Origin: Mobula hypostoma
Lineage: Eukaryota
Length of the DNA stretch: 64,000 nt
Direction: 5' to 3'
Assembly: GCF_963921235.1 (NCBI RefSeq)
Contig: NC_086097.1
Span: 29,204,001-29,268,000, forward strand
Part shown: in pieces, positions 7,016 to 64,000 of the stretch
How positions within the stretch are numbered: position 1 is the stretch's first letter
Layout of the letters: each line of letters opens with the position of its first letter
Position numbers and translations under genes: made by a program
The notes under the pieces: generated by a model
Told to the model about the DNA's origin: nothing
The model's database searches: none
What the model saw: only the letters and a program-made list of their open reading frames with translations

Positions 7016-8672
7016 GAAGACGCACGCTCAGAAACAGGAAGGTGAAGACACACGTTCAGGAACAGGAACGTGGAGATGCACACTCAGGAAGAGGAACGTG
7101 ACTACACACACTCAGGAACGGGAACACGATTACACACACTCAGGAACAGGAACACGATTACACACACTCAGGAACAGGAACGTGATTACACACACTCAGG
7201 AACGGGAACGTGAAGACGCACACTCAGGAACAGGAACATGATTACACACACTCAGGAACGGGAACGTGAAGACACACACTCAGGAACAGGAACGTGAAGA
7301 CGCACACTCAGGAACAGGAACATGATTACACACACTCAGGAACGGGAACGTGAAGACACACACTCAGGAACAGGAACGTGAAGACGCACACTCAGGAACA
7401 GGAACATGATTACACACACTCAGGAACGGGAACGTGAAGACACACACTCAGGAACAGGAACGTGAAGACGCACACTCAGGAACAGGAACGTGATTACACA
7501 CACTCATGAATGGGAATCTGAAGACGCACACTCAGCTACGGGAACTTCAAGACGCACGCTCAGGAACAGGAATGTGACTACACACGCTCAGGAACGGGAA
7601 CGCGAAGACACACGCTCAGTGACGGGAATGTGATTACACACACTCAGGAACAGGAACACGATTACACACACTCAGGAACAGGAACGTGAAGACACTCACT
7701 CAGTAACGGGAACGTGATTACACACACTCAGGAACGGGAATGTGATTACACACACTCAGGAACAGGAATGTGATTACACACATGCAGGAACAGGAACATG
7801 ATTACACACACCCAGGAACTGGAATGTTAAGATGCACACTGAGGAACAGGAACATGAAGACACACACTCAGGAATGGGAACGCGATTACACACACTCAGG
7901 AACAGGAATGTGATTACGCACACTCAGGAACAGGAATGTGATTACACACACTCAGGAACGGGAACGTGATTATGCACACTCAGGAAGGGGAACGCGATTA
8001 CACACAGTCAGGAACAGGAATGTGATTACACACACTCAGGAATGAGAGCATGATTACGCACAATCAGGAGCAGGAACGTGAAGATGCACACTCAGGAACA
8101 GGAACGCAAAGATGCACACTCAGGTATGAGAACGTGAAGATGCACACTCAGGAACGGGAACATGAAGACACACACTCAGTGACGGGAATGTGATTACACA
8201 CACTCAAGAACAGGAACATGATTACACACACTCAGGAACAGGAACGTGAAGACACACACTCAGTAACGGGAATGTGATTACACACACTCAGGAACAGGAA
8301 CGTGATTACACACACTCAGGAACAGGAATGTGATTACACACATGCAGGAACAGGAACGTGATTACACACACCCAGGAACTGGAATGTGAAGATGCACACT
8401 GAGGAACAGGAACATGAAGACACACACTCAGGAGCGAGAACGCGAAGACACACACTCAGGAACAGGAACGTGAAGATGCACACTCAGGAATGGGAACGCG
8501 ATTACACACACTCAGGAACAGGAACATGATTACACACACTCAGGACAGGAACATGATTACACACACTCAGGAACAGGAATGCGATTACACACACTCAGGA
8601 ACGGGAACGCGAAGATACACACTTAGGAACTGGAACGTGAAGACACGAACGGGAACGTGAAGACACACTCAG
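7016..8672. repeat. 28-bp minisatellite, about 59 units by length
   Basis: Unit cacacactcaggaac(a/g)ggaacgtg(atta/aaga) repeats continuously; Rex1-type 3' sequence flanks both sides. Confidence 0.97.
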
Positions 8673-13471: not shown

Positions 13472-13860
13472 TCGAGCAGAATGAGGCCACTTGGTCCATT
13501 AAACCTGCTTTGCTCTGCCATTCCATCATGGCTGATTTATTTTCCCTCTCAACCCCACTCTCTTGCCTTCTCTCTGCAACTTTTCACACTCTTACTAATC
13601 ACAAACCTATCAACCTCCGCTTTAAATAGACCCAATGACTTGGCCTCCACAGCCGCCTGTGGCAATGATTTCTGCCCTCTGACCGAAGGGATCTCTCCTC
13701 TAAAGGGACGACCCTCTATTCTGAGGCTGTGCCCTCTGCTAGACTCTAGGGTGGGGGTGCTGCAGTCTGGAGCAGCTGAAGAGGTGCACAAGGGTCCCAA
13801 TGTGTCGGGCAACATCTGTGGCAGGAAATGAGTCAGAATCGGAATCCCAGCAACACCCAC

Positions 13861-14017
13861 AGGAACTCAGCAGGCCAGGCAACATCAAGGAAAAGAGTGC
13901 AGTCAACGTTTCGAGCTGAAACCCTTCGGCAGGACAGGGTCTCGGCCTGGGATGTCAACTGTACTCATCTCCATAGACACTGCCTGGCCTGCCGAGTTCC
14001 TCCAGCATTTTGTGTGT
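13861..14017. mobile_element. Inverted pair of PLE terminal-repeat fragments
   Basis: 13861-13925 is the diverged reverse complement of 13936-14001, with a 10-nt spacer. Confidence 0.75.
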
Positions 14018-15360
14018 TATTCTGCAGAATCTCATGTATGGTGGCAGCAGTACAATGTAAGACGTAAAGATGACTGTAAGATACGATAAGTAAATAGTGC
14101 AGCAGAGGAATGGTGAGGTAGTGTTCGTTGGTTCATGGACCATTCAGAAATCTGATGGCAGAAGGGAAAAAGCTGGTCCTAAGTTGTTGAGTGTGGGCCT
14201 TCAGGCTCCTGTACCTCCTCGCTGATGGAAGTAATGAGGGAGGGCATGCCCTGGATGGAGAGAGTCCTTAATGATGAATGCCCCCTTCTTGAGGGACTGC
14301 CTTTTGAAGATGTCCTCAGTGGCAGGGAGAGTTCAGCCTGTGATGGAGCTGGCTGAGTTTACTACCCTCTGCATCCACTTGCTGTCCTGTAGATTGGAGG
14401 CAGTGAGGCAACCTGTCAGAATTGACAGTCGATGTTTCAGGTTGACTCCGGATCAACGGGTCCATATGGACGGTCTGTATCTGACCTGGGCTGTACCTGG
14501 TGTGGAATACAGCTGGCCCAGGGTGCATCTGCCACTGAACTGATCTCAGTTCATCATGAGCCCCCCAGGCAGTTCTATACATAGCTTCGGACAGTCAAAC
14601 ACTTCCCTGTACAATACTCCCCCTGCCCCCACATATCTGTACTCGAGCGAGGCATTAAATCATTCAATACCATCTGCATTGGCATTCCCATGTAGCTATG
14701 AATCTCAACAGATTTATGCAGAGCAGAAAATTCCAGGAAATATCTAACACAGTATTGGGTGACACACAGTGAGGTGTTAACTCAGCTTTACAACCCACAA
14801 GGGTAGGACCAGGAAACTGCTGGCCAGATGATTCAGACCAGACACTTTCAGCTGCTCCAGCTAGGGCCCATGGGCTCGTTCCCTCACCTCTGAAGCCCGA
14901 CGGGGGTCGCTCAGCAGACTGGTACAGCAACCGCTCCGCCCGTGACCGCAAGAAATGGCAGCGAGTTGAGGACACAGCTCAGCCTATCACGGAAAGCAGC
15001 CTCCCCTATTCGCAATGAGTACGTCCCTGTCGACATTTCTCGCTGCCTCAGTAAAGCAGCCAGAATAATCAAAGGTTCCACTCACCACAGACGTTCTCTC
15101 TTCTCCCCCCTCCCATCAGACAGAAGACACAAAAGCCTGAAAGCACGTAACACTAGGCTCAAAGGCAGCTTCTATCCCATCGTTATAGGTCTATGGAACC
15201 CTTGTACAATAAGATGGACTCTTACCTCACAATCCAGCTCCTTATGATCTTGTACCTTATTATCTACCTGCACAACAGCTTCCCTGTAAGTGTAACACTC
15301 TATTCTGCACTCTGTTCTTGTTTTACCTTGTTCTACCTCAAAGCACCATCGTAATGGATT

Positions 15361-15637
15361 CACAACATGCTGGAGCAACTCAGCAGGTCAGGCAGCATCC
15401 GTGGAAACGATCAGTCAACGTTTCGGGCCGGAACCCTTCGTCAGGACTGAAGAGGGAAGGGGCAATTCTCCAACTTCCAGTAATTGCCCCTTCCCTCTTC
15501 AGTCCTGACAAAGGGTTCTGGCCCGAAACGTTAAACTGATTGTTTCCATGGATGCTGTCCGAACTGCTGAGTTCCTCCAGCGTGTTGTGAGTGTTGCTTT
15601 GACCCCAGCATCTGCAGAGTATATTGCGTTTACGATT
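15361..15637. mobile_element. PLE-derived foldback insertion with 10-bp TSD
   Basis: Arms 15360-15467 and 15482-15590 with a 14-nt loop; gtaatggatt at 15351-15360 and 15638-15647. Confidence 0.9.
15411..15450 (-). ncRNA. Minimal type I hammerhead ribozyme motif with intact core
   Basis: Minus strand tcagtc-CTGACGA-A-GGGT-TCCG-GCCC-GAAAC-GTT-gactga: 6-bp stem I, CUGANGA and GAAA boxes, stem II, GUH triplet. Stem III has no loop. Activity is not shown. Confidence 0.7.
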
Positions 15638-15728
15638 GTAATGGATTAATCTGTATGGACTGCAAGCAGGATGTTCACAGTTCCTCGGTGCACGTTGCAA
15701 TAATGAAACAGTTAGTGAGTTTGCCAAG

Positions 15729-16012
15729 CAGCACGGTGGCTGAGTGAGTAGAGCCACTGTCTCATGGTGCCAGAGACCAGGGTTCAACCCTCACCCTCAG
15801 CGCGTCGGCATGGAGTTTGCATGTGCAGGCTTCCCCCAGTGCCGCGATTTCCTCCCGCATCCCAACCATGTGCGGGCAGGTCAGTGGCTGCTATAAATGA
15901 TCAGAATCCGGGAGGTGTGCTTGGGAATGTGGGGAGGATACAATGAAATGGGATTCGGGTAAGAATGGCTAATTGTCAGCACGGATTCGACAGCTGAAGA
16001 GCCTGTTTCCAA
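15729..16012 (+). mobile_element. tRNA-derived SINE (HE1/V-SINE-like)
   Basis: A box tggctgagtga, B box ggttcaaccc, V-like core tttcctcccgcatccca, CR1-like 3' end. Confidence 0.75.
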
Positions 16013-19240: not shown

Positions 19241-21816
19241 GTTCCTATCCATGTATCTATCTATCAGTGTACGTCTTCATCTACCTAGGCAGCCAGATCT
19301 GCACAGTGCTAATTATTCTGCAATCTTAAAGAACCTGCTTAAATTAGTGGAGTTAGGGGAAGCTCGAGAAGATTGAGATGCATCAAGTATTCCCTTTGTT
19401 CTGCATGTGATCTGAAGCTGTTCCATTACCTAATGTGTAATGAGCTTTCTCTCACACTAAAGCACAGAAGTCTCATTCTTTTCCTCAGCATCCTCTTAAG
19501 TCCCCTGAGGCCACCTGGGTTGGAGGAAAAGATCACAGTCTGCCTTCCAGCTCCCCTCTGCCAACTTGGAGAGGGGCCATTCAGCCATAATCCCGGCCTG
19601 GGTCAGAAAGCTGCTCAGCATCCCAGATAATTAATTGGACAATGAACGTATTAAAGAGAAGCTGCTGTAAGCCAACAGCAGGCTCCTTTGTTCAGGTAAC
19701 CTCTGCTTAATGGTTGGAGAGTTTGGGGGAGGGGTGAAGGTGGCTGATGGAGTGAGGGCGGATGAGGAGATTGGTGCCGCAGAGGAGGTGTGGAAGGAGA
19801 CGGTTGCTCTCACCTGTGCGAATCAATTGGAGCCTTATTTTAAATTTAAAAATTATTCTCAGCTAAAGCTACCCAAGGAACAATAAAGGAATTGAAATCA
19901 TTCTATGATAAAATTGTGTTTTTTTTTAATGATGTGATTTTGACTTCTAAAGTGCACTATAAATCTCATCCAGTCAGAGCCTTGGAAGGTGTTCCAAGCC
20001 CGTTAACCACTGTGCAGAGGGTTGTAGAGTCAGTCAGCTCCAGCACTGGCACACCGTCCCCACCATCGAGAACACCTTCAAAAGGCAATGCTTTAAGAAG
20101 GTGGTACCCACCATTAAGTACTCTCATCATCCTGGACATGTCCTCTTCTCATTATGACCATCAAGGAGGAAGTACAGGAGCCTGAAGACACGCTTTCAAC
20201 ATTTTAAGGCCAGCTTCTTCCCCTCCGACATCAGATTTCTGAATGGACCATAATTCTATGAACACCACTTCAATATTCTCATCTTTTCTTCTATTACTTA
20301 TTTATTCTCTATATATTCTTATTTGTAATCTATAGGAATTTTTATGTATTGCAATGTGTTGCTGCTGCAAAACAACACATTTCACAATGTGGGTCAGGGC
20401 AGTCTTTCATTGACTCTGTTTTATTGATTTGTTTGAGTACACCCACAAGAAAATAAATCTCAGTGTAGTATATGGTGACATAGATATACTTTGATTATAA
20501 AATTCACTTGAAACTTTGATAATAAACCTGATTTTGATTGTGTGTTACCGAACTCCACACAGACAACATTGAGGGCGGGTATCGAACCTTGGTGACCGGA
20601 GACGTGGGGCAGCGGCTCTGCATGATGTGACACCATGTCACCCTGAGCTGCTGGAATATAGAGAGTCCCCAGCCCTCCAAAATCGTCACTCAGACTGCTG
20701 ACGTTTAACCTTGGCGGCATGGCTCTGAAGAGCATCTGGCAGGAGAATCGTTTAAACAAAAACTGAGAATTCTATCGTTCACTTTCTTTGGAAGCTTTTA
20801 TTTGCTAACTTTTTAAAGCTCTGGAAATAGAACAAAAAGGTTGCTTGAGAATAAAAGGCTCTTCCAGTTGTAACAAACGCAAAAAGCAACGGGGGAACTC
20901 AGCTGGTCAGGCAGCATCCATGGAGGGAAATAGACAATTAACTGGAAACATATCGTATCTATTAACTATCTGTATATTTACAATGCTTAGAGAAACAGTA
21001 CAGTAACAGACCCTCACCACCCGACGAGCCCACACAGCCCAATTACATCCATGTGACGATTTAACCTGCTAACCCACGTCTTTGTATTCCATTGTCTTGT
21101 TTTATTTTTCTGTAACTGCCTGCAAGAAAATGAATCACAAGGTTGATAATAAATTTTACCTTGAACTTGACTCTGAAACAGTCAAGTGGGACCAGCTTGG
21201 GTAGACATCTTGACAAGGAAACGGTTGTTTAATTTATTTCGATTTGTTTGGAGGTACCGTACAGCACGGTAACAGGCTCTTCTGGCCCAACAAGTCTGCA
21301 CTGCTCAGTTACATCCGTGTAACCAATTAACCCACTAATCCCCTTGGGTTTGGAATGGGGGAGGAACCCAGAGCGGTCATGGGAAAAACGTACAAACTCC
21401 TTACGGACAGAGGCGGAATTGAACCTGGGTCGCTGGCGTTGTAATCAAAGATCAAAGTGAATTTATATCAAAGGATGTATATGTACTACCCTGAGATTCA
21501 TCTGCTTGTGGGCAAACACAGGAGAACAGAGAAGTACAATAGAACTGAAGAAAAAATGCACACACAGACAGACAAACAACCAATATGCAGAAGACAAAAC
21601 AGTGCAAATGCAAATATACGTCTAGTAAATCAATAAATAATATTGATAACGAGTTGTAGAGCCCTTGTTAGTCGGTCCATGGGTTGCTCAGTACGTTAGA
21701 CTGGCTCCTATGCTGCCGTACTGAATGGACGTCCCTCCACAGAAGCTGCCTCATCGGCTGAATTCCTCCAGAGCTCTGGCTCTTGCTCCAGATTCCAGCG
21801 TCTGCAGTCTCCTGTG

Positions 21817-21923
21817 TCTCCACAGTCCAATTGTAATGCTGCTCTCCACAGTCCGATTGTAATGCTGCTCTCCACAGTCCGATTGTAATGCTGCTCTCCA
21901 CAGTCCGATTGTAATGCTGCTCT
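21817..21923. repeat. 26-bp tandem repeat, 4 copies
   Basis: ctccacagtccgattgtaatgctgct starts at 21818, 21844, 21870 and 21896. Confidence 0.95.
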
Positions 21924-29138: not shown

Positions 29139-30480
29139 AGACCAGAAGACCATACACCTAGGAGCAGAATTATAACATTTGGCCCATCAAGTCTGCTCCA
29201 TCATCCCATTCTCCTACCTTCTCTCCGTAACCTTTGACACCCTGATTCATCAAGAACCTATCAACCTCCACCTTAAGTATACCCAATGACTTGGCCTGCA
29301 CAGACGTTTGTAGCAAAGAATTCCACAGAATCACCACCCTCTAGACCAAGTGATTTTTCCTTGTCTCTGTTCTAAAGGGACATCCCTCAATTCTGAGGCT
29401 GTGCCTTCTGGTCCAAACCCCCCCCCCCCTCTATAGGAAACATCTGCTCTATCCAGACCTTTCAATATTTGATAGGTTTCATTGAGATCCACCCATCATC
29501 CTTTGAAACTCCAGTGAGTACAGGCCCAGAGGCATCAAATGCTGCTCATATGATAAGGCTTTAATTCCTGGAATCATTCTCGTAAACTTCCTCTGGATTC
29601 TCTCCAGTGCTAGCTCATCCTTTCTTTTAGATAAGGGTTCAAAACTGCACACAACATTTCAAATGTGGTCTGACTAATACCTTATAAAGCCTCAGCATTA
29701 CATCCTTGCTTTTATATTCTAGTTCTCTTGAAATGACTGCATTTGCATTTGACCTTTAGGGAATCCAGCACGATGACTCCCAAGTCCCTCTGACTCTGAT
29801 TTTTGAAGCTTTTCCCTGTTTACAAAGTAGTAAATGCCTTTATTTCTTCTGCCAAAGTGCATGATTATGCACTTCCCTACATTAAATTCCATCTGCCTCT
29901 TCTTCGCCCATTCCCCCAATCTGTCAAATTCTTTCTCCAGCCTCAGTATTTCCTCAACACAACCTGCCCTTCCACCTACCTTCATATCGTCCACAGACTT
30001 GGACACAAAGTGTTCAGTTCTGATATTCAAATCACTGATATTCAACATGAAAAGAATCGGTCCCAACACCGACCCCTGTAGAACACCACTAGTCACTGGC
30101 AGCCAACAAGAGAAGGCCACCTTTATTCCACTCTTTGCCTCCTGCCAATCAGCCATTCTTCTATCCATTCGACAACCATGGGCTGTTAGTTTATTGTTGA
30201 AAATTCAAATAAACACCATCCAGTGACTCTCCCTTGCTTATTCTACCTGTTATTTCCTCACAGAAATGCACCAAGCAAGATTCCCCCTTTAGAAAACCAT
30301 GCTGACTTTGGCCTGTTTTATCATGGGCCCCCAAATACCCTGAAACCTCGATAATAGACTTCAAAATCTTCCCAACCACTGAAGTTAGGCTAACAGGCCT
30401 ATAATTTCCTTTCTTCTGCCTCCCTCTCTTCTTAAAGAGTGGAGCGACTTTTGAAATTTTCCAGTTCTCTTCCTCCACCA
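29139..30480 (-). mobile_element. CR1 LINE ORF2/3' portion, degraded, with internal deletion
   Basis: GNYRPVSLTSVVGK, QHGFLKG and GVLQGSVLGP motifs; agacca tail near 29139. Confidence 0.9.
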
Positions 30481-30489
30481 TTGATGGTA

Positions 30490-31475
30490 TCTTCAAAGGC
30501 ATTTCCTCCATTTCCCAGACAGGCACTCTCACCCCATCTTCCTGCCACTTTAACGGTGATGGAGTTCCTCTTGTCTTTACCTACCACCCCATCCAATACG
30601 TCATACTTCACAACTTCCACCATCTCCTACCACCTAACCTCCCCACCTCTCCACTCCCTCCGTGATTCCCTTGTCCATTCATCCCGCCTCACTGATCTTC
30701 CTCCCGGCACTTGCCCCTGCAAGCAGCCAATGTACTACACTTGCCCATTCACCTCCATCCTCGCCTCCATTCAGGGCCCCAAGCAGTCCTTTCAGGTGAG
30801 GCAACACTTCACCTGTGAATCTGCTGGGGTTGTCTATTGTATCTGGTGCTCCTGATGCAGCCTCCTCTACATTGGTGAGACCCATCACAAATTGGGGTCC
30901 GCTTTGTTGAACACCTCTGCTCCATCTACCAAAAGCAGAACTTTCTGTTGGCCAAACATTTTAATTTGAATTTCCATTCCTGTTCCAATATATCAGTCCA
31001 TGGCCTCCTCTTACCCAGGTGAGGCCACCCTCAGAGTGGAGGATCGACACCTTGTATTCCATCTGAGTAGCCTCCAACCTGATATTGATTTCTCCTTCCA
31101 GTAAAAAAAATCCCCCTTCTTCCATTCCCCACTTTGGCCTCTTAATTCTTCTCTCTGCCTATCACCTCCACCTGGGTCCCCTCCTCCTTCCCTTTCTCCC
31201 ATGGTCCACTCTCCTCTCCCATCAAATTCCTTCTCCTCCAGCCCTTTACCTTTCCCACCCACTTCGCTTCACCTATCACCTTCTAGCTAGCCTCCTTCCC
31301 TTCTTCCCATCTTTTTTATTTTGGCATCTTCCCCCTTCCTTTCCAGCCCTGAAGAAGGGTCTCGGCCCCGACTGTTGATTCATTTCCATAGGTGCTGCCT
31401 GACCTGCTGAGTTCCTCCAGCATTTTGTCTGTGTTGCCTTGGATTTCCAGCATCTACAGAATCTCTTGTGTCTAT
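30490..31475 (+). mobile_element. Penelope-like element 3' part with GIY-YIG endonuclease remnant
   Basis: CPC..CPF..FQVRQHFTCESAGVVYCIWCS*CSLLYIGET, followed by a terminal repeat with a deleted hammerhead motif. Confidence 0.88.
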
Positions 31476-37213: not shown

Positions 37214-40030
37214 TTAGTCCCACTCCCCCACCTTCTCACCATAACCTTTGATGCCCTGGCTTCTCAGATACCTATCAATCTCTGCCTTAAATACACCCAA
37301 TGACTTGGCCTCCACTGCTGCCCGTGGCAACAAATTCCATAGATTCACCACCCTCTGACTAAAAAAATTTCTTCGCATTTCTGTTCTGAATGGGCGCCCT
37401 TCAATCCTTAAGTCCTGCCCTCTCGTACTAGACTCCCCCATCATGGGAAACAACTTTGCCACATCCACTCTGTCCATGCCTTTCAACATTTGAAATGTTT
37501 CTATAAGGTCTCCCCTCGTTCTTCTAAACTCCCAGGAATACAGACCAAGAGTGGACAAACGTTCCTCATATGTTAACCCTCTCATTCCCAGAATCATTCT
37601 AGTGAATCTTCTCTGTACCCTCTCCAACGTCAGCACATCCTTTCTTAAATAAGGAGACCAAAACTGCCCACAGTACTCCAAGTGAGGTCTCACCAGCGCC
37701 TTATAGAGCCTCAACATCACATCCCTGCTCCTATACTCTACTCCTCTAGAAATGAATGCCAGCATTGCATTCGCCTTCTTCACTACTGACTCAACCTGGA
37801 GGTTAACCTTAAGGGTATCCTGTACGAGGACTCCCAAGTCCCATTGCATCTCAGAAGTTTGAATTCTTTCTCCATTTTAATAATAGTCTGTCCGTTTATT
37901 ACTTCTGCCAAAGCGCATAACCATACACTTTCCAACATTGTATTTCATTTGCCACTTCTTTGCCCATTCTTCCAATCTATCCAAGTCTCTCTGCAGACTC
38001 TCCATTTCCTCAGCACTACCGGCCCCTCCATCTATCTTTGTATCGTCAGCAAACTTAGCCACAAAGCCATCTATTCCATAATCCAAATCGTTGATGTACA
38101 ATGTAAAAAGAAGCGGCCCCAACACTGATCCCTGTGGAACACCACTGGTAACCAGCAGCCAACCAGAATAGGATCCCTTTATTCCCACTCTCTGTTTCCT
38201 GCCAATCAGCCAACGCTCTATACACGTATGTAACTTTCCCGTAATTCCATGGGCTCTTATCTTGTTAAGTAGTCTCATGTGTGGCACCTTGTCAAAGGCC
38301 TTCTGAAAATCCAAATATACAACATCCACTGCATCTCCCTTGTCTAGCCTACTGGTAATTTCCTCAAAAAATTGTAATAGGTTTGTCAGGCAGGATTTTC
38401 CTTTAAGGAATCCATGCTGAGTTCTGCCTATCTTGTCATATGCCTCCAGGTACTCTGTAACCTCATCCTTGACCATCGACTCCAACAACTTCCCAACCAC
38501 CAACGTCAAGCTAACAGGTCTATAATTTCCATTTTGCTTCCTTGCTCCCTTCTTAAATAGCAGAGTGACATTTGCAATCTTCCAGTCCTCCGGAACCATA
38601 CCAGAATCTATCGACTTCTGAAAGATCATCGCTAATGCCTCCGCAATCTCCACAGCTACTTCCTTCAGAAAACGTGGGTGCATTCCATCTGGTCCGGGAG
38701 ATTTATCTACCTTTGGACTATTCAGCTTCCTGAGTACTTTCTCTGTCGTAATTGTGACTGCGCACACTTCTCTTCCCTGCCACCCTTGAGTGTCCGGTAT
38801 ACTGCTGATGTCTTCCTCAGTGAAGACTGATGCAAAATACTCATTCAGTTCCTCTGCCATCTCCTTATCTCCCATTACAATTTCTCCAGCATCATTTTCT
38901 ATCGGTCCCATATCTACTGTCATCTGTCTTTTACTCTTTATATACTTGAAAAAGCTTTTAGTATCCTCTTTGATATTATTTGCTAGCTTCCTTTCATAGT
39001 TAATCTTTTCCCTCTTAATGACCTTCTTAGTTTCCTTTTGTAAGGTTTTGAAAACTTCCTAATCCTCTGTCTTCCCACTAATTTTTGCTTCCTCGTATGC
39101 CCTCTCCTTTGCTTTAACTTTGGCTTTGACTTCTCTTGTCAAATACGGTTGCATCCTTTTCCCATTCGAAAATTTCTTCTTTTTTGGAATATACCTGTCT
39201 TGCACCTTCCTCACTTCTCGCATAAACTCCAGCCACTGCTGCTCTGCCATCTTTCCCGCCAATGTCCCTTTCCAGTCAACTTTAGCCAGTTCCTCTCTCA
39301 TGGCACTGTAATTTCCTTTACTCCACTGAAATACCGACACATCAGATTTCAGCTTCTCTTTTTCAAATTTCACAGTGAACTCAATCATGTTATGATCACT
39401 GCCTCCTAAGGGTTCCTTCACCTCAATCTCTCTAATCACCCACGGTTCATTACACAATACCCAATCCAGTACAGCCGATCCCCTAGTGGGCTCAACAACA
39501 AGCTGTTCTAAAAAGCCATCTCACAGACATTCTACAAATTCTCTCTCTTGAGATCCAGTGCCAATTTGATTTTCCCAATCCACTCGCATGTTAAAATCCC
39601 CCACAATTATCATAACACTGCCCTTCTGACAAGCCTTTTCTATTTCCTGTTGTAATTTGTAGTCCACATCACTGCAGCTGTTTGGAGGCCTATAAATAAC
39701 TGCCATCAGGGTCCTTTTACCCCTGCTATTTCTTAGCTCAACCCATAAAGATTCTGCACCTTCCGATCCTATATCACCTCTTTCTAATGATTTAATATCA
39801 TTTCTTACCAATAAAGCCACGCCTCCCCCTCTGCCTACCTTCCTATCCTTCCAATACACCGTGTATCCTTGGATGTTCAGCTACCAGAGACATGCATCCT
39901 TTAGCCATGTCTCGGTGATGGCCACAATATCATACCTGCCAATCTGTAGCTGTACGACAAGATCATCCACTTTATTCCTTATGCTGCATGCATTTAAGTA
40001 TAACACCTTAAGACCAGTATTTGGTACTTT
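37214..40030 (-). pseudogene. CR1 ORF2 (APE endonuclease + reverse transcriptase) with four in-frame stops
   Basis: LYLNA.SI, ITETWL, GDFN, SDH, YLDFQKAFD, GVPQGSVLGP and FADD all lie in one frame; stops at 39881, 39521, 39059 and 37877. Confidence 0.93.
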
Positions 40031-40200
40031 TCACTTTGATTTCGCTGCAACTTTATTGCACTGCAACTCATCCCAGTGGCTACAAATTTGCCCCATCACC
40101 TGCCTGTCTTTCCTGACATCTTTACTGCTCACTATCTTAGATTTGTTTCTAATTTCCTCTTCCTCCGCTCTATCATTCCAGTTCCCATCCCCCTGCCAAA

Positions 40201-41136
40201 TTAGTTTAAACCCTCCCTAACAGCTCTATTAAACTTTTCTGCCAGGATATTGGTCCCCTTCGAGTTCAGGTGTAACCTGTCCTTTTCAAACAGGTCATAC
40301 TTCTCCCAGAAGAGATCCCAATTATCCAAGAATCTGAAGCCCTGCCCCCTACACCAGTCTCTCAGGCACACATTCATCTGCCTGATCCTATTATTCTTGC
40401 CCTCGCTAGCACGTGGCACAGGTAGCAATCCTGAGATTACTACCCTGGAGGTCCTGCTTCTCAGCTTCCTTCCTAACTCCCAGTAATCTTTCTTCAGGAC
40501 CTCCTCCTTTGTCCTATCTATGTCATTGGTACCAACATGTACCAAGACAACTGGCTGATCATCCTCCCCCTTCAGAATATTCTGGACCCGATCCGAGACA
40601 TCCCGTAACCTGGCACCTGGGAGGCAACACACCATGCAGGTATCTCTATCAGGCTCACAGAATCTCCTGTCCGTTCCCCTGACTATGGAATCCCCTACGA
40701 CTACCGCATTTCTCTTCTCCCTTCTTCCCTCCTGCACAACAGCACCAGGCTCAGTGCCAGAGACCCGGTCACCGTGGGCGTCCCCAGTCAGGTCATCCCC
40801 CTCAACAGCATCCAGAACAAGATATTTGTTGCTGAGGGGGACAGCCACAGGGGTGCTCTCCACTATCCGGGCATTTCCCTTCCCTCTCTTGACAGTGACC
40901 CAGTTTTCTGACCCCTGTAGCCTAGGGATGACTACCTCCATGTAGCTCCCGTCTATCACCTCTTCACTTTCCCTGATAAGCAGTAGGTCATCGAGCTGCA
41001 GCTCCAGATCCCTAACACGGTCTCTGAGGAACTGTATCTCGGTGCACCTGGCGCAGATGTGGCCATCAGGGAGGCTGGAGGTCTCCCAAGATTTCCACAT
41101 CTGACACCCTGAACAAAGCACTAACCCTGCAGGCAT
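40201..41136 (-). CDS. CR1 ORF1p, 311 aa: Cys/His zinc finger, coiled coil, SGNH/GDSL esterase-like domain
   Basis: Uninterrupted ATG-to-TAA ORF with CSGC..HICARC, VVGDS, PGA, HVGTND and DRLHLN blocks. Confidence 0.93.
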   Translation of the reverse strand: MPAGLVLCSGCQMWKSWETSSLPDGHICARCTEIQFLRDRVRDLELQLDDLLLIRESEEVIDGSYMEVVIPRLQGSENWVTVKRGKGNARIVESTPVAVPLSNKYLVLDAVEGDDLTGDAHGDRVSGTEPGAVVQEGRREKRNAVVVGDSIVRGTDRRFCEPDRDTCMVCCLPGARLRDVSDRVQNILKGEDDQPVVLVHVGTNDIDRTKEEVLKKDYWELGRKLRSRTSRVVISGLLPVPRASEGKNNRIRQMNVCLRDWCRGQGFRFLDNWDLFWEKYDLFEKDRLHLNSKGTNILAEKFNRAVREGLN

Positions 41137-42324
41137 GCTATCTAATTCTACAGGAATGAAACAGGAAAAATAAGTCTACTCACCCACTTACCTCACCAAA
41201 CAGACAAACTTTAAACCGTTAGCTCGTACCGTTAGCTGTGAGAGCCCTGCTGTTCCTGTCTGTCCGGGCCGATTCGTGAAAGTGGGGGGGGAGAAAAAAA
41301 GAGTTGGCGCTTCGCTCTTGCCTCTTCTCGTTTACCGCTGAAGCCCGTTGAAGCCAAAGCCCTACACTCTGCTACCACTCACACCGCTGCCCGCTCCAAC
41401 CGCTGCCCGCTGTATAGGGTGGTCTCCTTTTTAAACTCTCCGCGCTGTCCTGTTACGTCATGTGCCTGTGCAGTCTCATCCTTCTTGCACTTGAAGAAGT
41501 TTTTAAAAAACTGCCTTCCTTCAGAATTCAGCTCCCATGACGCTCTGTAGTCCCCATCCAAAAGACAGCCATTGGTAGCAACCTGCCTTTTCAAACTCTC
41601 CGCGCTGTCCTGTTACGTCACGCGCCTGCGCAGTCTTGTCCTTCTTGCACTCGAAGAAGTTTTTTAAAAAGCTGCCTTCCTTGAGAAGCAAGGAGAGAGC
41701 ATGGTGTCCTTGATGATGGATGTTGGTTTCTTGGGGCAGCACTCCATGTAAATGTGCCCAGTGATGGGGAGGGCTTTGCCTGTGATGGACTGGGCTGTAT
41801 CAACCACTTTCTGTCACCTTTTCCATTCCTGGCCGTTGGTGTTTCCATACCAATCTGTGATGCAACCAGTCAGGATACTCTCCACTGTGCACCTATAGAA
41901 GTTTGTCAAAGTTTCTGTTGACATGCTGATTCTATGCAAACCTCTGAGAGAGTAGAGGCTCCATTTGGCATTGGGGGATGGAAAAACTTACTCAATTCCA
42001 GAAGATTGGGCCTGATGAAGATTAAATAATGGAGTTTTGATTTAATTGAAGAATATAAATATCTCAAACCACAAGTTCTTGAGTTCAATGGCTTAATGGC
42101 TGTCATCTACATGCACAGATTATATTTCCACTCTGTTGCTTGCTCATAATCATCTATAATTTTTTTTGTATTACATATTATGGTTTCAATAAAAAAAGAA
42201 AATGAAGTTAATGACAAATGAAAGCTAAGTCCAACTTCGCCCCAACTGTATTCCAAGAGGTTATCTGAATGTCAGAATGGAATTGATTTATTAAAGGGTT
42301 ACAGCATCTCTTTGTGATTCCGTC

Positions 42325-52329: not shown

Positions 52330-52900
52330 AGCACAATGGGTCGGGCAGCATCTGTGGAGGGAAATGGAAAGTTGACGTTTCGGTCGAGACCCTTCATCAT
52401 AACTGGAAAGGAAGAGGACAGAAACCAGAGAACATGGAGGTCCCGCCTTTTGTGGTGGACTGAGCAAAGGTGCCCAACGAAGCAGTCTCCCAATCCACGT
52501 TGGAGAAGAGTAATGGATACAGTAGATGACCCCGACAGACTCACAGGTGAAGTGTTGCCTCACCGAGAAGGACTGTTGGGGCCCTGAATGGTAGTGAGGG
52601 AGGAGGTGAATGGGCAGGCGTTACACTTGTCCCACTTGCAGGGTTAAGTGCCAGGAGGGAGAAGAGTAGAGAGAGGTGAGTGGACGAGGGAGAGTGTGAT
52701 TGCTGTGGAAAGCTGTAAGTATGGGGTCGGGGTGGGGGGGGAGAGAGATGTGTTCAGTGGTAGGATCCCATTGAAGATGGCAGAAGTTAGGGAGAATTAC
52801 ATTCTAGATGCAGAGGCTTGTGGGGTGGTAGGTGAGGACAAGGGGAACTCTATCCCTTCTATGGCGGCAAGAAGATGGGATGAGAGCAGATGTCCCAAGA
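52330..52900 (-). mobile_element. PLE fragment (GIY-YIG remnant plus terminal repeat), internally deleted
   Basis: RQHFTCESVGVIYCI; hammerhead-like motif at 52370-52405. Confidence 0.8.
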
Positions 52901-53190
52901 TGATACTAAAGGATCTCACGATGGCTAACCATTTCAATTCCACTTTCCATTTCCATTCTGACACGTTGGTCCACTGCCTCCTCTACTGTCATGATGCGAA
53001 AGCACTTAAGCTGGCGGAGCAACACTTCATAATCTGGGTAGCTTCTAACATGATGCAGTAAATATCAGTTTCTTCAGCCTCCAGTAATTTCCCCTAACCC
53101 TCCTTCTCTCATTTTCCATTCCTCATTCTGATTCACCTTTCACCCCTTCTCTTCTCCTTACCTGCCAAACATGTTTGTTTGGTGCCCCCC

Positions 53191-53784
53191 TCCTTCCCGT
53201 TCTCCCGTGGTTCACTGTTCTCTCCTGTCAATTCCTTCCCATTCTCCCGTGGTCCACTGTTCTCTCCTGTCAGTTCCTTCCTGTTCTCCCGTGGTCCACT
53301 GTTCTCTCCTATCAATTCCTTCCTGTTCTCCCGTGGTCCACTGTTCTCTCCTATCAATTCCTTCCCGTTCTCCCATGGTCCACTGTTCTCTCCTATCAAT
53401 TCCTTCCCGTTCTCCCGTGGTCCACTGTTCTCTCCTGTCAATTCCTTCCCATTCTCCCGTGGTCCACTGTTCTCTCCTATCAATTCCTTCCCGTTCTCCC
53501 GTGGTCCACTGTTCTCTCCTATCAATTCCTTCCTGTTCTCCCGTGGTCCACTGTTCTCTCCTATCAATTCCTTCCCATTCTCCCGTGGTCCACTGTTCTC
53601 TCCTATCAATTCCTTCCTGTTCTCCCGTGGTCCACTGTTCTCTCCTGTCAATTCCTTCCCGTTCTCCCGTGGTCCACTGTTCTCTCCTATCAATTCCTTC
53701 CTGTTCTCCCGTGGTCCACTGTTCTCTCCTGTCAATTCCTTCCCGTTCTCCCGTGGTCCACTGTTCTCTCCTGTCAATTCCTTC
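53191..53784. repeat. 42-bp minisatellite, 14 copies
   Basis: Unit tccttcccgttctcccgtggtccactgttctctcctatcaat; it explains the four repetitive ORFs at 53133-53948. Confidence 0.97.
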
Positions 53785-54109
53785 TTCTTCAGCCCTTTAC
53801 CTCTTCCACCTATCACCCCCCGGTTTCTCACTTCACCCCCCCCAACCACTCACATTCCCCCTCACCTGACTTCACCCGTCACGTGACAGCTTGTACTCCT
53901 CCCCATCCTCCAGCCTTCTTATCCTGGCTTCCTTCCCCTTCCTGTTGAAGAATTTTGACCCAAAATGTCGACTGTTTATTGCCGCCTGAGCTAGAGTTCC
54001 TGCAGCATTTTATTTATTTATTGAGATGCCGTGTGGAATAGGCCCCTCTGGCCCTTTGAACCACGCTGTTCTGCAATCCCCCAAGCTAATTCTAGCCCAA
54101 TCACAGGAC

Positions 54110-63641: not shown

Positions 63642-64000
63642 TAGGCCTCCTCCACTGGGCCTCCTCCACTAGGCCTCCTCCACTGCATCCTCCACTGGGC
63701 CTCCTCCACTGCATCCTCCACTGGGCCTCCTCCACTAGGCCTGCTCCACTGGGCCTCCTCCACTGTCCTCCACTGGGCCTCCTCCACTGGGCATCCTCCA
63801 CTAGGCCTCCTCCACTGGGCCTCCTCCACTAGGCCTCCTCCACTGGGCCTCCTCCACTGGGCCTCCTCCACTACATCCTCCACTGCATCCTCCACTGGAC
63901 CTCCTCCACTAGGCCTCCTCCACTGGGCCTCCTCCACTAGGCCTCCTCCACTAGGCCTCCTCCACTGCATCCTCCACTAGGCCTCCTCCACTGCATCCTC
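63642..64000. repeat. 14/12-bp GC-rich minisatellite running off the window end
   Basis: Units ggcctcctccact(g/a) and gcatcctccact. Confidence 0.96.

What the first reader, a model, noticed from the sequence alone, without database searches (positions are those of the whole stretch)
15351..15647. TSD-flanked foldback element carrying an intact hammerhead ribozyme core
Seen: a 277-bp insertion with a 10-bp TSD (gtaatggatt), forming a stem of about 108 bp with a 14-nt loop. The minus strand of the left arm reads tcagtc CTGACGA A GGGT TCCG GCCC GAAAC GTT gactga. The right arm carries the same motif with G8>A (CTGACAA). Established: Penelope-like elements carry minimal type I hammerheads in their terminal repeats and often integrate with an inverted partial repeat; an extra base between A9 and G10.1 is tolerated in some natural hammerheads. 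Inference: stem III has no loop (A-C-G-U palindrome), so cleavage would need a dimer. The foldback would instead trap the motif in dsRNA, giving either self-silencing or a small mobile ribozyme unit.
Basis: partly seen in the sequence, partly recalled or inferred. Interest (0 to 1): 0.7.

Follow-up and report, generated by a model that had tools for sequence, protein, structure and literature searches.

The report
Miniature head-to-head Penelope retroelement insertion
This small DNA hairpin is an old, dead leftover of a Penelope-like jumping gene in a ray genome: two truncated tail ends sit back to back, a pattern already described, and the ribozyme motif they carry is locked inside the hairpin.

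Summary
In detail: 10-bp duplication, 277-bp insert, ~108-bp stem, 14-nt loop, an intact minimal type I hammerhead core on the left arm and G8>A on the right. (1) A 44-47-bp tail lies on the right arm only. (2) The loop is the last codons and stop of the Penelope ORF, joined to the terminal repeat across a ~220-bp 3'-UTR deletion; both arms share that junction and turn at an AATT palindrome. (3) The target is a LINE 3' end. The parent is a very abundant RT + GIY-YIG (Neptune-type) Penelope-like element of a ray. Inverted 5'-truncated repeat, one-sided tail and 8-10-bp TSD are the published insertion form. Other head-to-head copies, in the window and in public contigs, have different junctions, so a mobile fold-back unit is not supported, though not excluded. 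The arms are about 10% diverged, mostly by CpG decay, and a second organism shares the insertion. The hammerheads lie on opposite strands and cannot dimerise in cis; forcing the fold costs 57 kcal/mol. Verdict: a new member of a known kind, a dead relic. The shared deletion junction is a modest clue to how the second arm is made.

The parts
15351..15360 (.). Left target-site duplication (10 bp exact; possibly 13 bp from 15348 with one substitution)
   Evidence: paralogous LINE ends carry the site once
15361..15467 (-). Left arm: inverted, 5'-truncated, tail-less copy of the Penelope terminal repeat, 3' end pointing left
15411..15450 (-). Minimal type I hammerhead, core intact (C3-A9 at 15444-15438, GAAA at 15424-15421); predicted cut after GUU between 15417 and 15416
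   Evidence: numbering from established hammerhead consensus
15464..15467 (.). AATT palindrome at the inversion junction, shared by both arms (second copy 15482-15485)
15466..15483 (+). Last codons and stop of the Penelope ORF (F-S-N-F-Q-stop), including the 14-nt loop 15468-15481
   Evidence: related proteins end FSNFR; best non-self match is the ORF end near 53064-53095
15482..15590 (+). Right arm: sense copy of the terminal repeat; 21 bp from stop to hammerhead core against 244 bp in the copy at 31.1 kb
15499..15539 (+). Degenerate hammerhead: G8>A at 15510 and disrupted helix I
15591..15637 (+). One-sided Penelope tail (47 bp, or 44 bp if the TSD is 13 bp)
   Evidence: same tail in copies at 31.4 and 47.4 kb
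15638..15647 (.). Right target-site duplication
15095..15350 (+). Target, left part: 3' end of an older dispersed LINE-type repeat (family name L2/Rex1-like is recalled, not tested)
   Evidence: 13 non-self hits in the window
15648..15714 (+). Target, right part: continuation of the same LINE 3' end
   Evidence: weak hits; the copy at 9719-9665 reads across the site without the insert

Best explanation
A single, old integration product of an endonuclease-bearing (Neptune-type) Penelope-like retrotransposon, in its shortest form. The element's GIY-YIG nuclease made staggered nicks 10-13 bp apart in an AT-rich spot of a LINE 3' end (inferred). Reverse transcription began at the tail, copied the terminal repeat through an uncleaved hammerhead, crossed most of the 3' UTR at a TGCCCC microhomology, and stopped about 20 nt into the ORF end (sequence shown, order inferred). 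The second arm arose either by the cDNA end folding back at AATT and copying itself (about 50%), or by a second priming event on the other nick using an already UTR-deleted template with AATT:AATT annealing (about 35%), or by later rearrangement (about 15%). The hammerheads are passengers: on either strand the sense motif is transcribed after its own complement, so it is trapped. The locus has since decayed by CpG mutation.
For: Homology of the arms to 12 other places in the window, one of which follows a GIY-YIG-type ORF remnant at 30450-31105. That remnant's relatives are ray proteins (7 hits among 61 candidates); GIY-YIG in 5 of 7 below the curated cut-off; RT plus GIY-YIG in 4 of 5 further relatives scanned. 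The loop equals the ORF end. Published anatomy matches point by point: inverted 5'-truncated pLTR, optional 31-bp tail on one side, 8-10-bp TSDs, palindromes at the junction, head-to-head most common (PMC3846280; PMC8557442); paired min-HHRs on opposite strands 100-700 bp apart (PMC4209133). In vitro a PLE protein cuts and extends both strands, prefers ATT, starts at two sites one tail apart and uses uncleaved RNA (PMC11167929). Different junctions elsewhere: 13861-14001, 52330-53990, and 9 of 12 listed junction rows in public contigs. 6 of 10 arm mismatches are CpG transitions, p = 0.0006. A contig of organism B bridges tail and right flank with 12 differences in 395.
Against: Summed depth at 15483 is about 26 times the flank in run X2 (174.5 vs 6.6), which leaves room for a small same-junction or short-UTR family (depth is not a copy number). 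No empty orthologous site appeared in the 15 of 568 joints listed. The 4-bp snap-back hairpin is unstable by itself (+1.2 kcal/mol). The tail is longer than the 30-40 bp quoted. The clade was assigned by motif, not by a tree.
Confidence: 0.85

Rival explanations
1. The template was a short non-autonomous Penelope derivative (ORF stop, 21-bp UTR, hammerhead, tail) that exists as its own small family; this locus is one dual-primed insertion of it. This overlaps with the best explanation and changes only the source template.
For: Both arms share the deletion junction. Depth at 15483 is 174.5, 1086 and 175 in runs X2, X5, X9, some 20-30 times their flank contigs. Non-autonomous pLTR derivatives are reported (bioRxiv 2026.07.22.740005; PMC8557442).
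Against: The 28-bp junction occurs once in the window at up to 3 mismatches. The listed loose end at 15464 is the long UTR in 91 (X2) and 209 (X5) contigs. The depth at 15483 may come from ordinary ORF-end contigs or alignment overhang.
Confidence: 0.3
2. A longer head-to-head insertion later collapsed: cruciform or break repair deleted the centre and re-copied the inner part of one arm from the other.
For: The inner 51 bp differ at 2 sites against 9 in the outer 57 (p = 0.056). Microhomology deletions in Penelope copies are reported (PMC3846280).
Against: The gradient is not significant. Both inner mismatches are CpG transitions, so the inner stem is also old.
Confidence: 0.12
3. The fold-back is itself a mobile, ribozyme-bearing unit (MITE-like or retrozyme-like), or a maintained hairpin source of silencing RNAs.
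For: Clean TSD, very stable hairpin, one intact core; it is the only one of 14 aligned segments with both core boxes and helix II in place. Penelope copies yield antisense small RNAs in a rotifer (PMC3846280).
Against: The ends are asymmetric by the tail; other junctions differ; 10% arm decay is CpG-driven with no sign of pair maintenance; the hammerhead cannot fold in the hairpin; neither end nor the turn maps to the cleavage site.
Confidence: 0.07
4. Assembly artefact (fold-back chimera).
For: No listed contig spans the whole element.
Against: The arms differ at 11 places, a TSD is present, and the right junction is seen in contigs of two organisms.
Confidence: 0.01

Closest known systems
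Inverted-pLTR insertions of EN+ Penelope-like elements, e.g. Pen2a_Av of Adineta vaga (PMC3846280, passages read; scheme in PMC8557442, passages read)
   Same: Head-to-head inverted 5'-truncated repeat, tail on one side only, 8-10-bp TSD, palindrome at the junction
   Different: No ORF body left; whole insert 277 bp; tail 44-47 bp; 3' UTR deleted with the junction shared by both arms
Minimal type I hammerheads of metazoan PLE pLTRs (PMC4209133, parts 1-2 of 4 read)
   Same: No loop 3, palindromic 15.2-16.2, extra base between A9 and G10.1, G10.1-C11.1 pair; pairs on opposite strands 100-700 bp apart already noted in Schistosoma
   Different: Helix II 4 bp and helix I 6 bp (canonical sizes, not 7-8 and 4-5); GUU triplet; cartilaginous fish not named in the parts read
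PAc (Poseidon of Anolis carolinensis) in vitro system (PMC11167929, parts 1-2 of 4 read)
   Same: ATT/AAT-rich target, tail as distance between two RT starts, hammerhead left uncleaved in the inserted copy
   Different: PAc is Poseidon clade without the zinc linker, and its hammerhead overlaps the ORF start; here the parent's start codon was not located
Non-LTR retrozymes (bioRxiv 10.64898/2026.07.22.740005, parts 1-3 of 5 read)
   Same: Non-coding, pLTR-derived, type I hammerhead
   Different: Retrozymes are direct tandem repeats able to dimerise in cis; this is an inverted pair

Membership tests
EN+ Penelope-like element insertion | Sequence belongs to the terminal repeat of an element coding RT plus C-terminal GIY-YIG | tested here: met
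EN+ Penelope-like element insertion | Inverted 5'-truncated copy adjoining the 5' end (head-to-head) | tested here: met
   against PMC8557442
EN+ Penelope-like element insertion | 30-40-bp tail at one end only | tested here: met
   one-sided, 44-47 bp, slightly longer than quoted
EN+ Penelope-like element insertion | Short TSD of variable length | tested here: met
   10 bp exact; paralogous target read across once
Neptune clade | CX2-5CxxC zinc linker between RT and EN | tested here: met
   present in 10 of 10 related proteins checked; Nematis shares it
Neptune clade | RT phylogeny groups with named Neptune elements | not tested
Minimal type I hammerhead (left arm) | CUGANGA and GAAA cores, G10.1-C11.1, extra base after A9, palindromic 15.2-16.2, helices I and II | tested here: met
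   against PMC4209133; GUU is listed as a cleavable NUH site in PMC3138052
Minimal type I hammerhead (right arm) | Catalytic G8 and helix I | tested here: not met
   G8>A and helix-I disruption
Minimal type I hammerhead | Self-cleavage as a dimer | not testable with these tools
   needs an assay; nearest-neighbour energies favour other folds (active dimer -23.1 vs best cofold -34.7 kcal/mol), but omit tertiary contacts and protein help
Non-LTR retrozyme | Two or more direct tandem units, each with a hammerhead | tested here: not met
   units are inverted; no tandem repeat at the locus
Non-LTR retrozyme | Circular RNA intermediate | not testable with these tools
   contigs only
MITE / fold-back DNA transposon | Terminal inverted repeats flush with the TSD | tested here: not met
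   47 unpaired bp at the right end; feature list recalled
MITE / fold-back DNA transposon | Many copies with the same internal junction and different TSDs | tested here: inconclusive
   1 copy in the window; contigs show other junctions, but depth at 15483 is above single copy

The most novel reading that the evidence does not exclude
A UTR-deleted miniature Penelope derivative forms its own small family whose hairpin form is re-mobilised as a unit by the parent's RT/endonuclease and, when read through, gives a 108-bp double-stranded RNA that feeds small-RNA silencing of one of the most abundant repeats of ray genomes.
Probability: 0.07. Interest if true: 0.55.

Novelty: new member of a known kind. 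Interest (0 to 1): 0.2.

Why it matters
As a single locus it matters little: the insertion form and the ribozyme motif are both published. Its one useful property is mechanistic. How Penelope elements make their inverted arm is open (PMC3846280 favours self-priming; PMC11167929 shows both strands extended in vitro). Insertions in which both arms share a private template deletion separate the two models: if the junction is unique in the genome, the second arm must have been copied from the first cDNA. Ray genomes appear to hold very many such insertions, so the test could be run at scale.

Tried and rejected
Whole genome not held. Rfam at gathering threshold: 0 matches. Degenerate arm patterns found 0 stretches in viral contigs and metagenome contigs. 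Pfam on four decayed window ORFs: 0 families. No RNA holder was listed; run X18 is RNA only by guess and has no depth at 15483, which says nothing about expression. No empty orthologous site among the listed joints (15 of 568 shown). TSD scans for six other copies gave no convincing duplication. A hand-placed check of bases after 3' ends for an ATT preference was inconclusive. The 52.1-54.3 kb region gave no self-inverted hit at E < 0.001; its head-to-head layout rests on strand orientation of hits. Literature searches for a description in cartilaginous fish gave nothing on topic by title and abstract start (4 papers; 3 papers), nor did twin priming with Penelope (1 unrelated paper); subscription papers and Repbase are not covered. 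Lunse et al. on PLE hammerhead dimers was seen only as a reference entry. Supplements of PMC4209133 and the bioRxiv preprint were not read and may list shark or ray motifs. Look-ups of earlier findings by sequence, words, near and relatives returned nothing.

Full report
Observation. A 10-bp direct repeat at 15351-15360 and 15638-15647 encloses 277 bp. Arms at 15360/1-15467 and 15482-15590 close a 14-nt loop and differ by 10 substitutions and 1 indel in 108 columns. The RNA fold is -196 kcal/mol, z = -23. The minus strand of 15450-15411 has a perfect 6-bp helix I, CUGACGA, one extra A, a 4-bp helix II and GAAAC-GUU. A strict descriptor hit only this site in the window and 0 of 400 simulated strands.

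Family. The arms match 12 other places in the window and two more through a longer copy. The copy at 30450-31475 carries a decayed ORF directly upstream. Read with X at its stop, it found 7 proteins among 61 candidates, all named Hypanus sabinus or Mobula hypostoma by their sources, so the host is probably a myliobatiform ray; I did not identify it further. Five of these 7 match GIY-YIG at E 0.0005-0.002, below Pfam's cut-off. Of 5 further relatives scanned, 4 have both RT and GIY-YIG matches. All 10 proteins checked have the CX2-5CxxC linker that marks Neptune and Nematis elements (PMC8557442, passages). Neptune is my assignment by motif and host group; no tree was built.

The loop. Five of 155 proteins held end in or near an FSNFR-like motif, and 15466-15483 reads F-S-N-F-Q-stop. 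The best non-self match to 15464-15491 in the window is the ORF end of another copy near 53064-53095. Stop to hammerhead core is 21 bp here and 244 bp at 31.1 kb. In public contigs the listed loose end at 15464 continues into a different, long-UTR sequence (91 contigs in X2, 209 in X5, agreement about 0.8). So most of the 3' UTR was lost between two TGCCCC-like words (inference), both arms carry the bases of that junction, and the turn sits on the palindrome AATT.

Target and age. The insert splits the 3' end of an older dispersed repeat. The paralogue at 9719-9665 matches the left flank and then the right flank with the duplicated word present once. One paralogue has T where the left flank has C, so the TSD may be 13 bp starting with ATT (inference). 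Six of 10 arm mismatches are CpG transitions (p = 0.0006). A contig of organism B holds 32 bp of tail plus the right flank, with 12 differences in 395 bp, so the insertion predates that split. Run X2 confirms the right junction with 0 differences but may be the source sample. No listed contig spans the left junction or the loop.

Mobile unit or recurring product. The window holds a second fold-back at 13861-14001, 70% self-complementary with another centre, and a 1.7-kb outward-facing pair at 52330-53990. In one search, 40,739 contigs of run X2 were laid on 15000-16000. Of 15 joints listed (568 in all), 9 jump from left arm to right arm, and 9 of 12 listed junction rows (172 in all) do so with differing inserted letters; sides are short and likeness was set to 85, so these are hints. 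Summed depth in X2 is 2.25 million at 15374-15407, 174.5 at 15483 and 6.6 on the unique flank. Depth is not a copy number, but the contrast says this centre is rare in a huge family. It also leaves room for a few tens of similar junctions, which I could not resolve without a genome. The 28-bp junction is unique in the window.

The ribozyme. The left motif has every feature listed for PLE minimal hammerheads (PMC4209133, parts 1-2 of 4). That paper found no cleavage for a monomer, low cleavage for dimers, and pairs on opposite strands 100-700 bp apart. GUU is a permitted triplet (PMC3138052, passages); several other window copies have GTC. In the hairpin, helix I has pairing probability near 1e-39 and forcing the fold costs 57 kcal/mol. 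In a head-to-head layout each sense motif is transcribed after its complement, and a transcript stopped at the motif's end already folds as the hairpin. The two motifs are on opposite strands, so no dimer forms in cis. Even the isolated 40-mer prefers a rod that pairs core bases (-14.8 vs -12.4 kcal/mol). Both arms run about 50 nt past the cut site, so the template was uncleaved there, as reported for PAc (PMC11167929, parts 1-2 of 4).

Mechanism. Shown: anatomy, parent family, ORF-end loop, shared junction, decay. From the literature: inverted pLTR with one-sided tail and 8-10-bp TSD is the typical Penelope structure, and junction palindromes were read as self-priming (PMC3846280, passages); PAc nicks at ATT, extends both strands and starts at two sites one tail apart. 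Inferred: nicking, priming at the tail, a jump or prior deletion across the UTR, arrest 20 nt later, and formation of the second arm. Snap-back explains the shared junction without a special master, but the 4-bp hairpin is unstable alone (+1.2 kcal/mol) and the stop at the tail boundary needs nuclease resolution. Dual priming explains the tail offset directly but needs two UTR-deleted templates. The inner stem is better conserved than the outer (2 of 51 vs 9 of 57, p = 0.056), a weak hint of later re-copying. One loose end: the 11-mer spanning the right junction recurs just after the tail of the copy at 21.7 kb, so a few bases of the right TSD may also match the element's RNA.

Earlier notes of this scan on the same genome report short two-armed Penelope insertions turning at short inverted matches and other head-to-head pairs. 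They are unchecked AI notes and are not counted as support.

Verdict. Real, correctly spotted, and of a described kind: a miniature, dead head-to-head Penelope insertion with a passenger hammerhead. Interest 0.2. The shared deletion junction is the one detail worth a genome-wide follow-up.

Noticed in passing
window 13855-14030: Second, more decayed head-to-head Penelope fold-back (70% self-complementary) with a different centre; no clear TSD.
   Followed up: partly
window 52330-53990: Outward-facing pair of Penelope fragments: the minus strand matches residues 234-392 of P0005, the plus strand residues 390-435, then ORF end, UTR and a decayed hammerhead. The split at the same residue resembles an L1-type twin-priming inversion (recalled). 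A 42-bp tandem array of 14 copies (53191-53784) has expanded inside the UTR.
   Followed up: partly
window 30450-31475: 5'-truncated Penelope copy with zinc linker, GIY-YIG remnant, 244-bp UTR, broken hammerhead and full tail; used as the in-window reference.
   Followed up: yes
window 21817-21923: A 26-bp tandem array (4 copies) starts at the tail end of a Penelope fragment and contains the same 11-mer that spans the right junction of the focal element.
   Followed up: partly
window 20880-20930 and 21730-21830: Two outward-facing repeat ends 800 bp apart (79% alike); may be another head-to-head insertion or two separate ones.
   Followed up: no
window 7023-8640: 28-bp tandem array of about 58 copies.
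   Followed up: no
window 63642-64000: 14-bp tandem array of about 26 copies with higher-order periods, running to the window end.
   Followed up: no
window 15730-15870: tRNA-like SINE head just right of the element (family resemblance recalled, not tested).
   Followed up: no
window 37214-41175 (minus): Long LINE remnant with a 324-aa ORF1-like frame and broken RT frames (CR1-like by recall).
   Followed up: no
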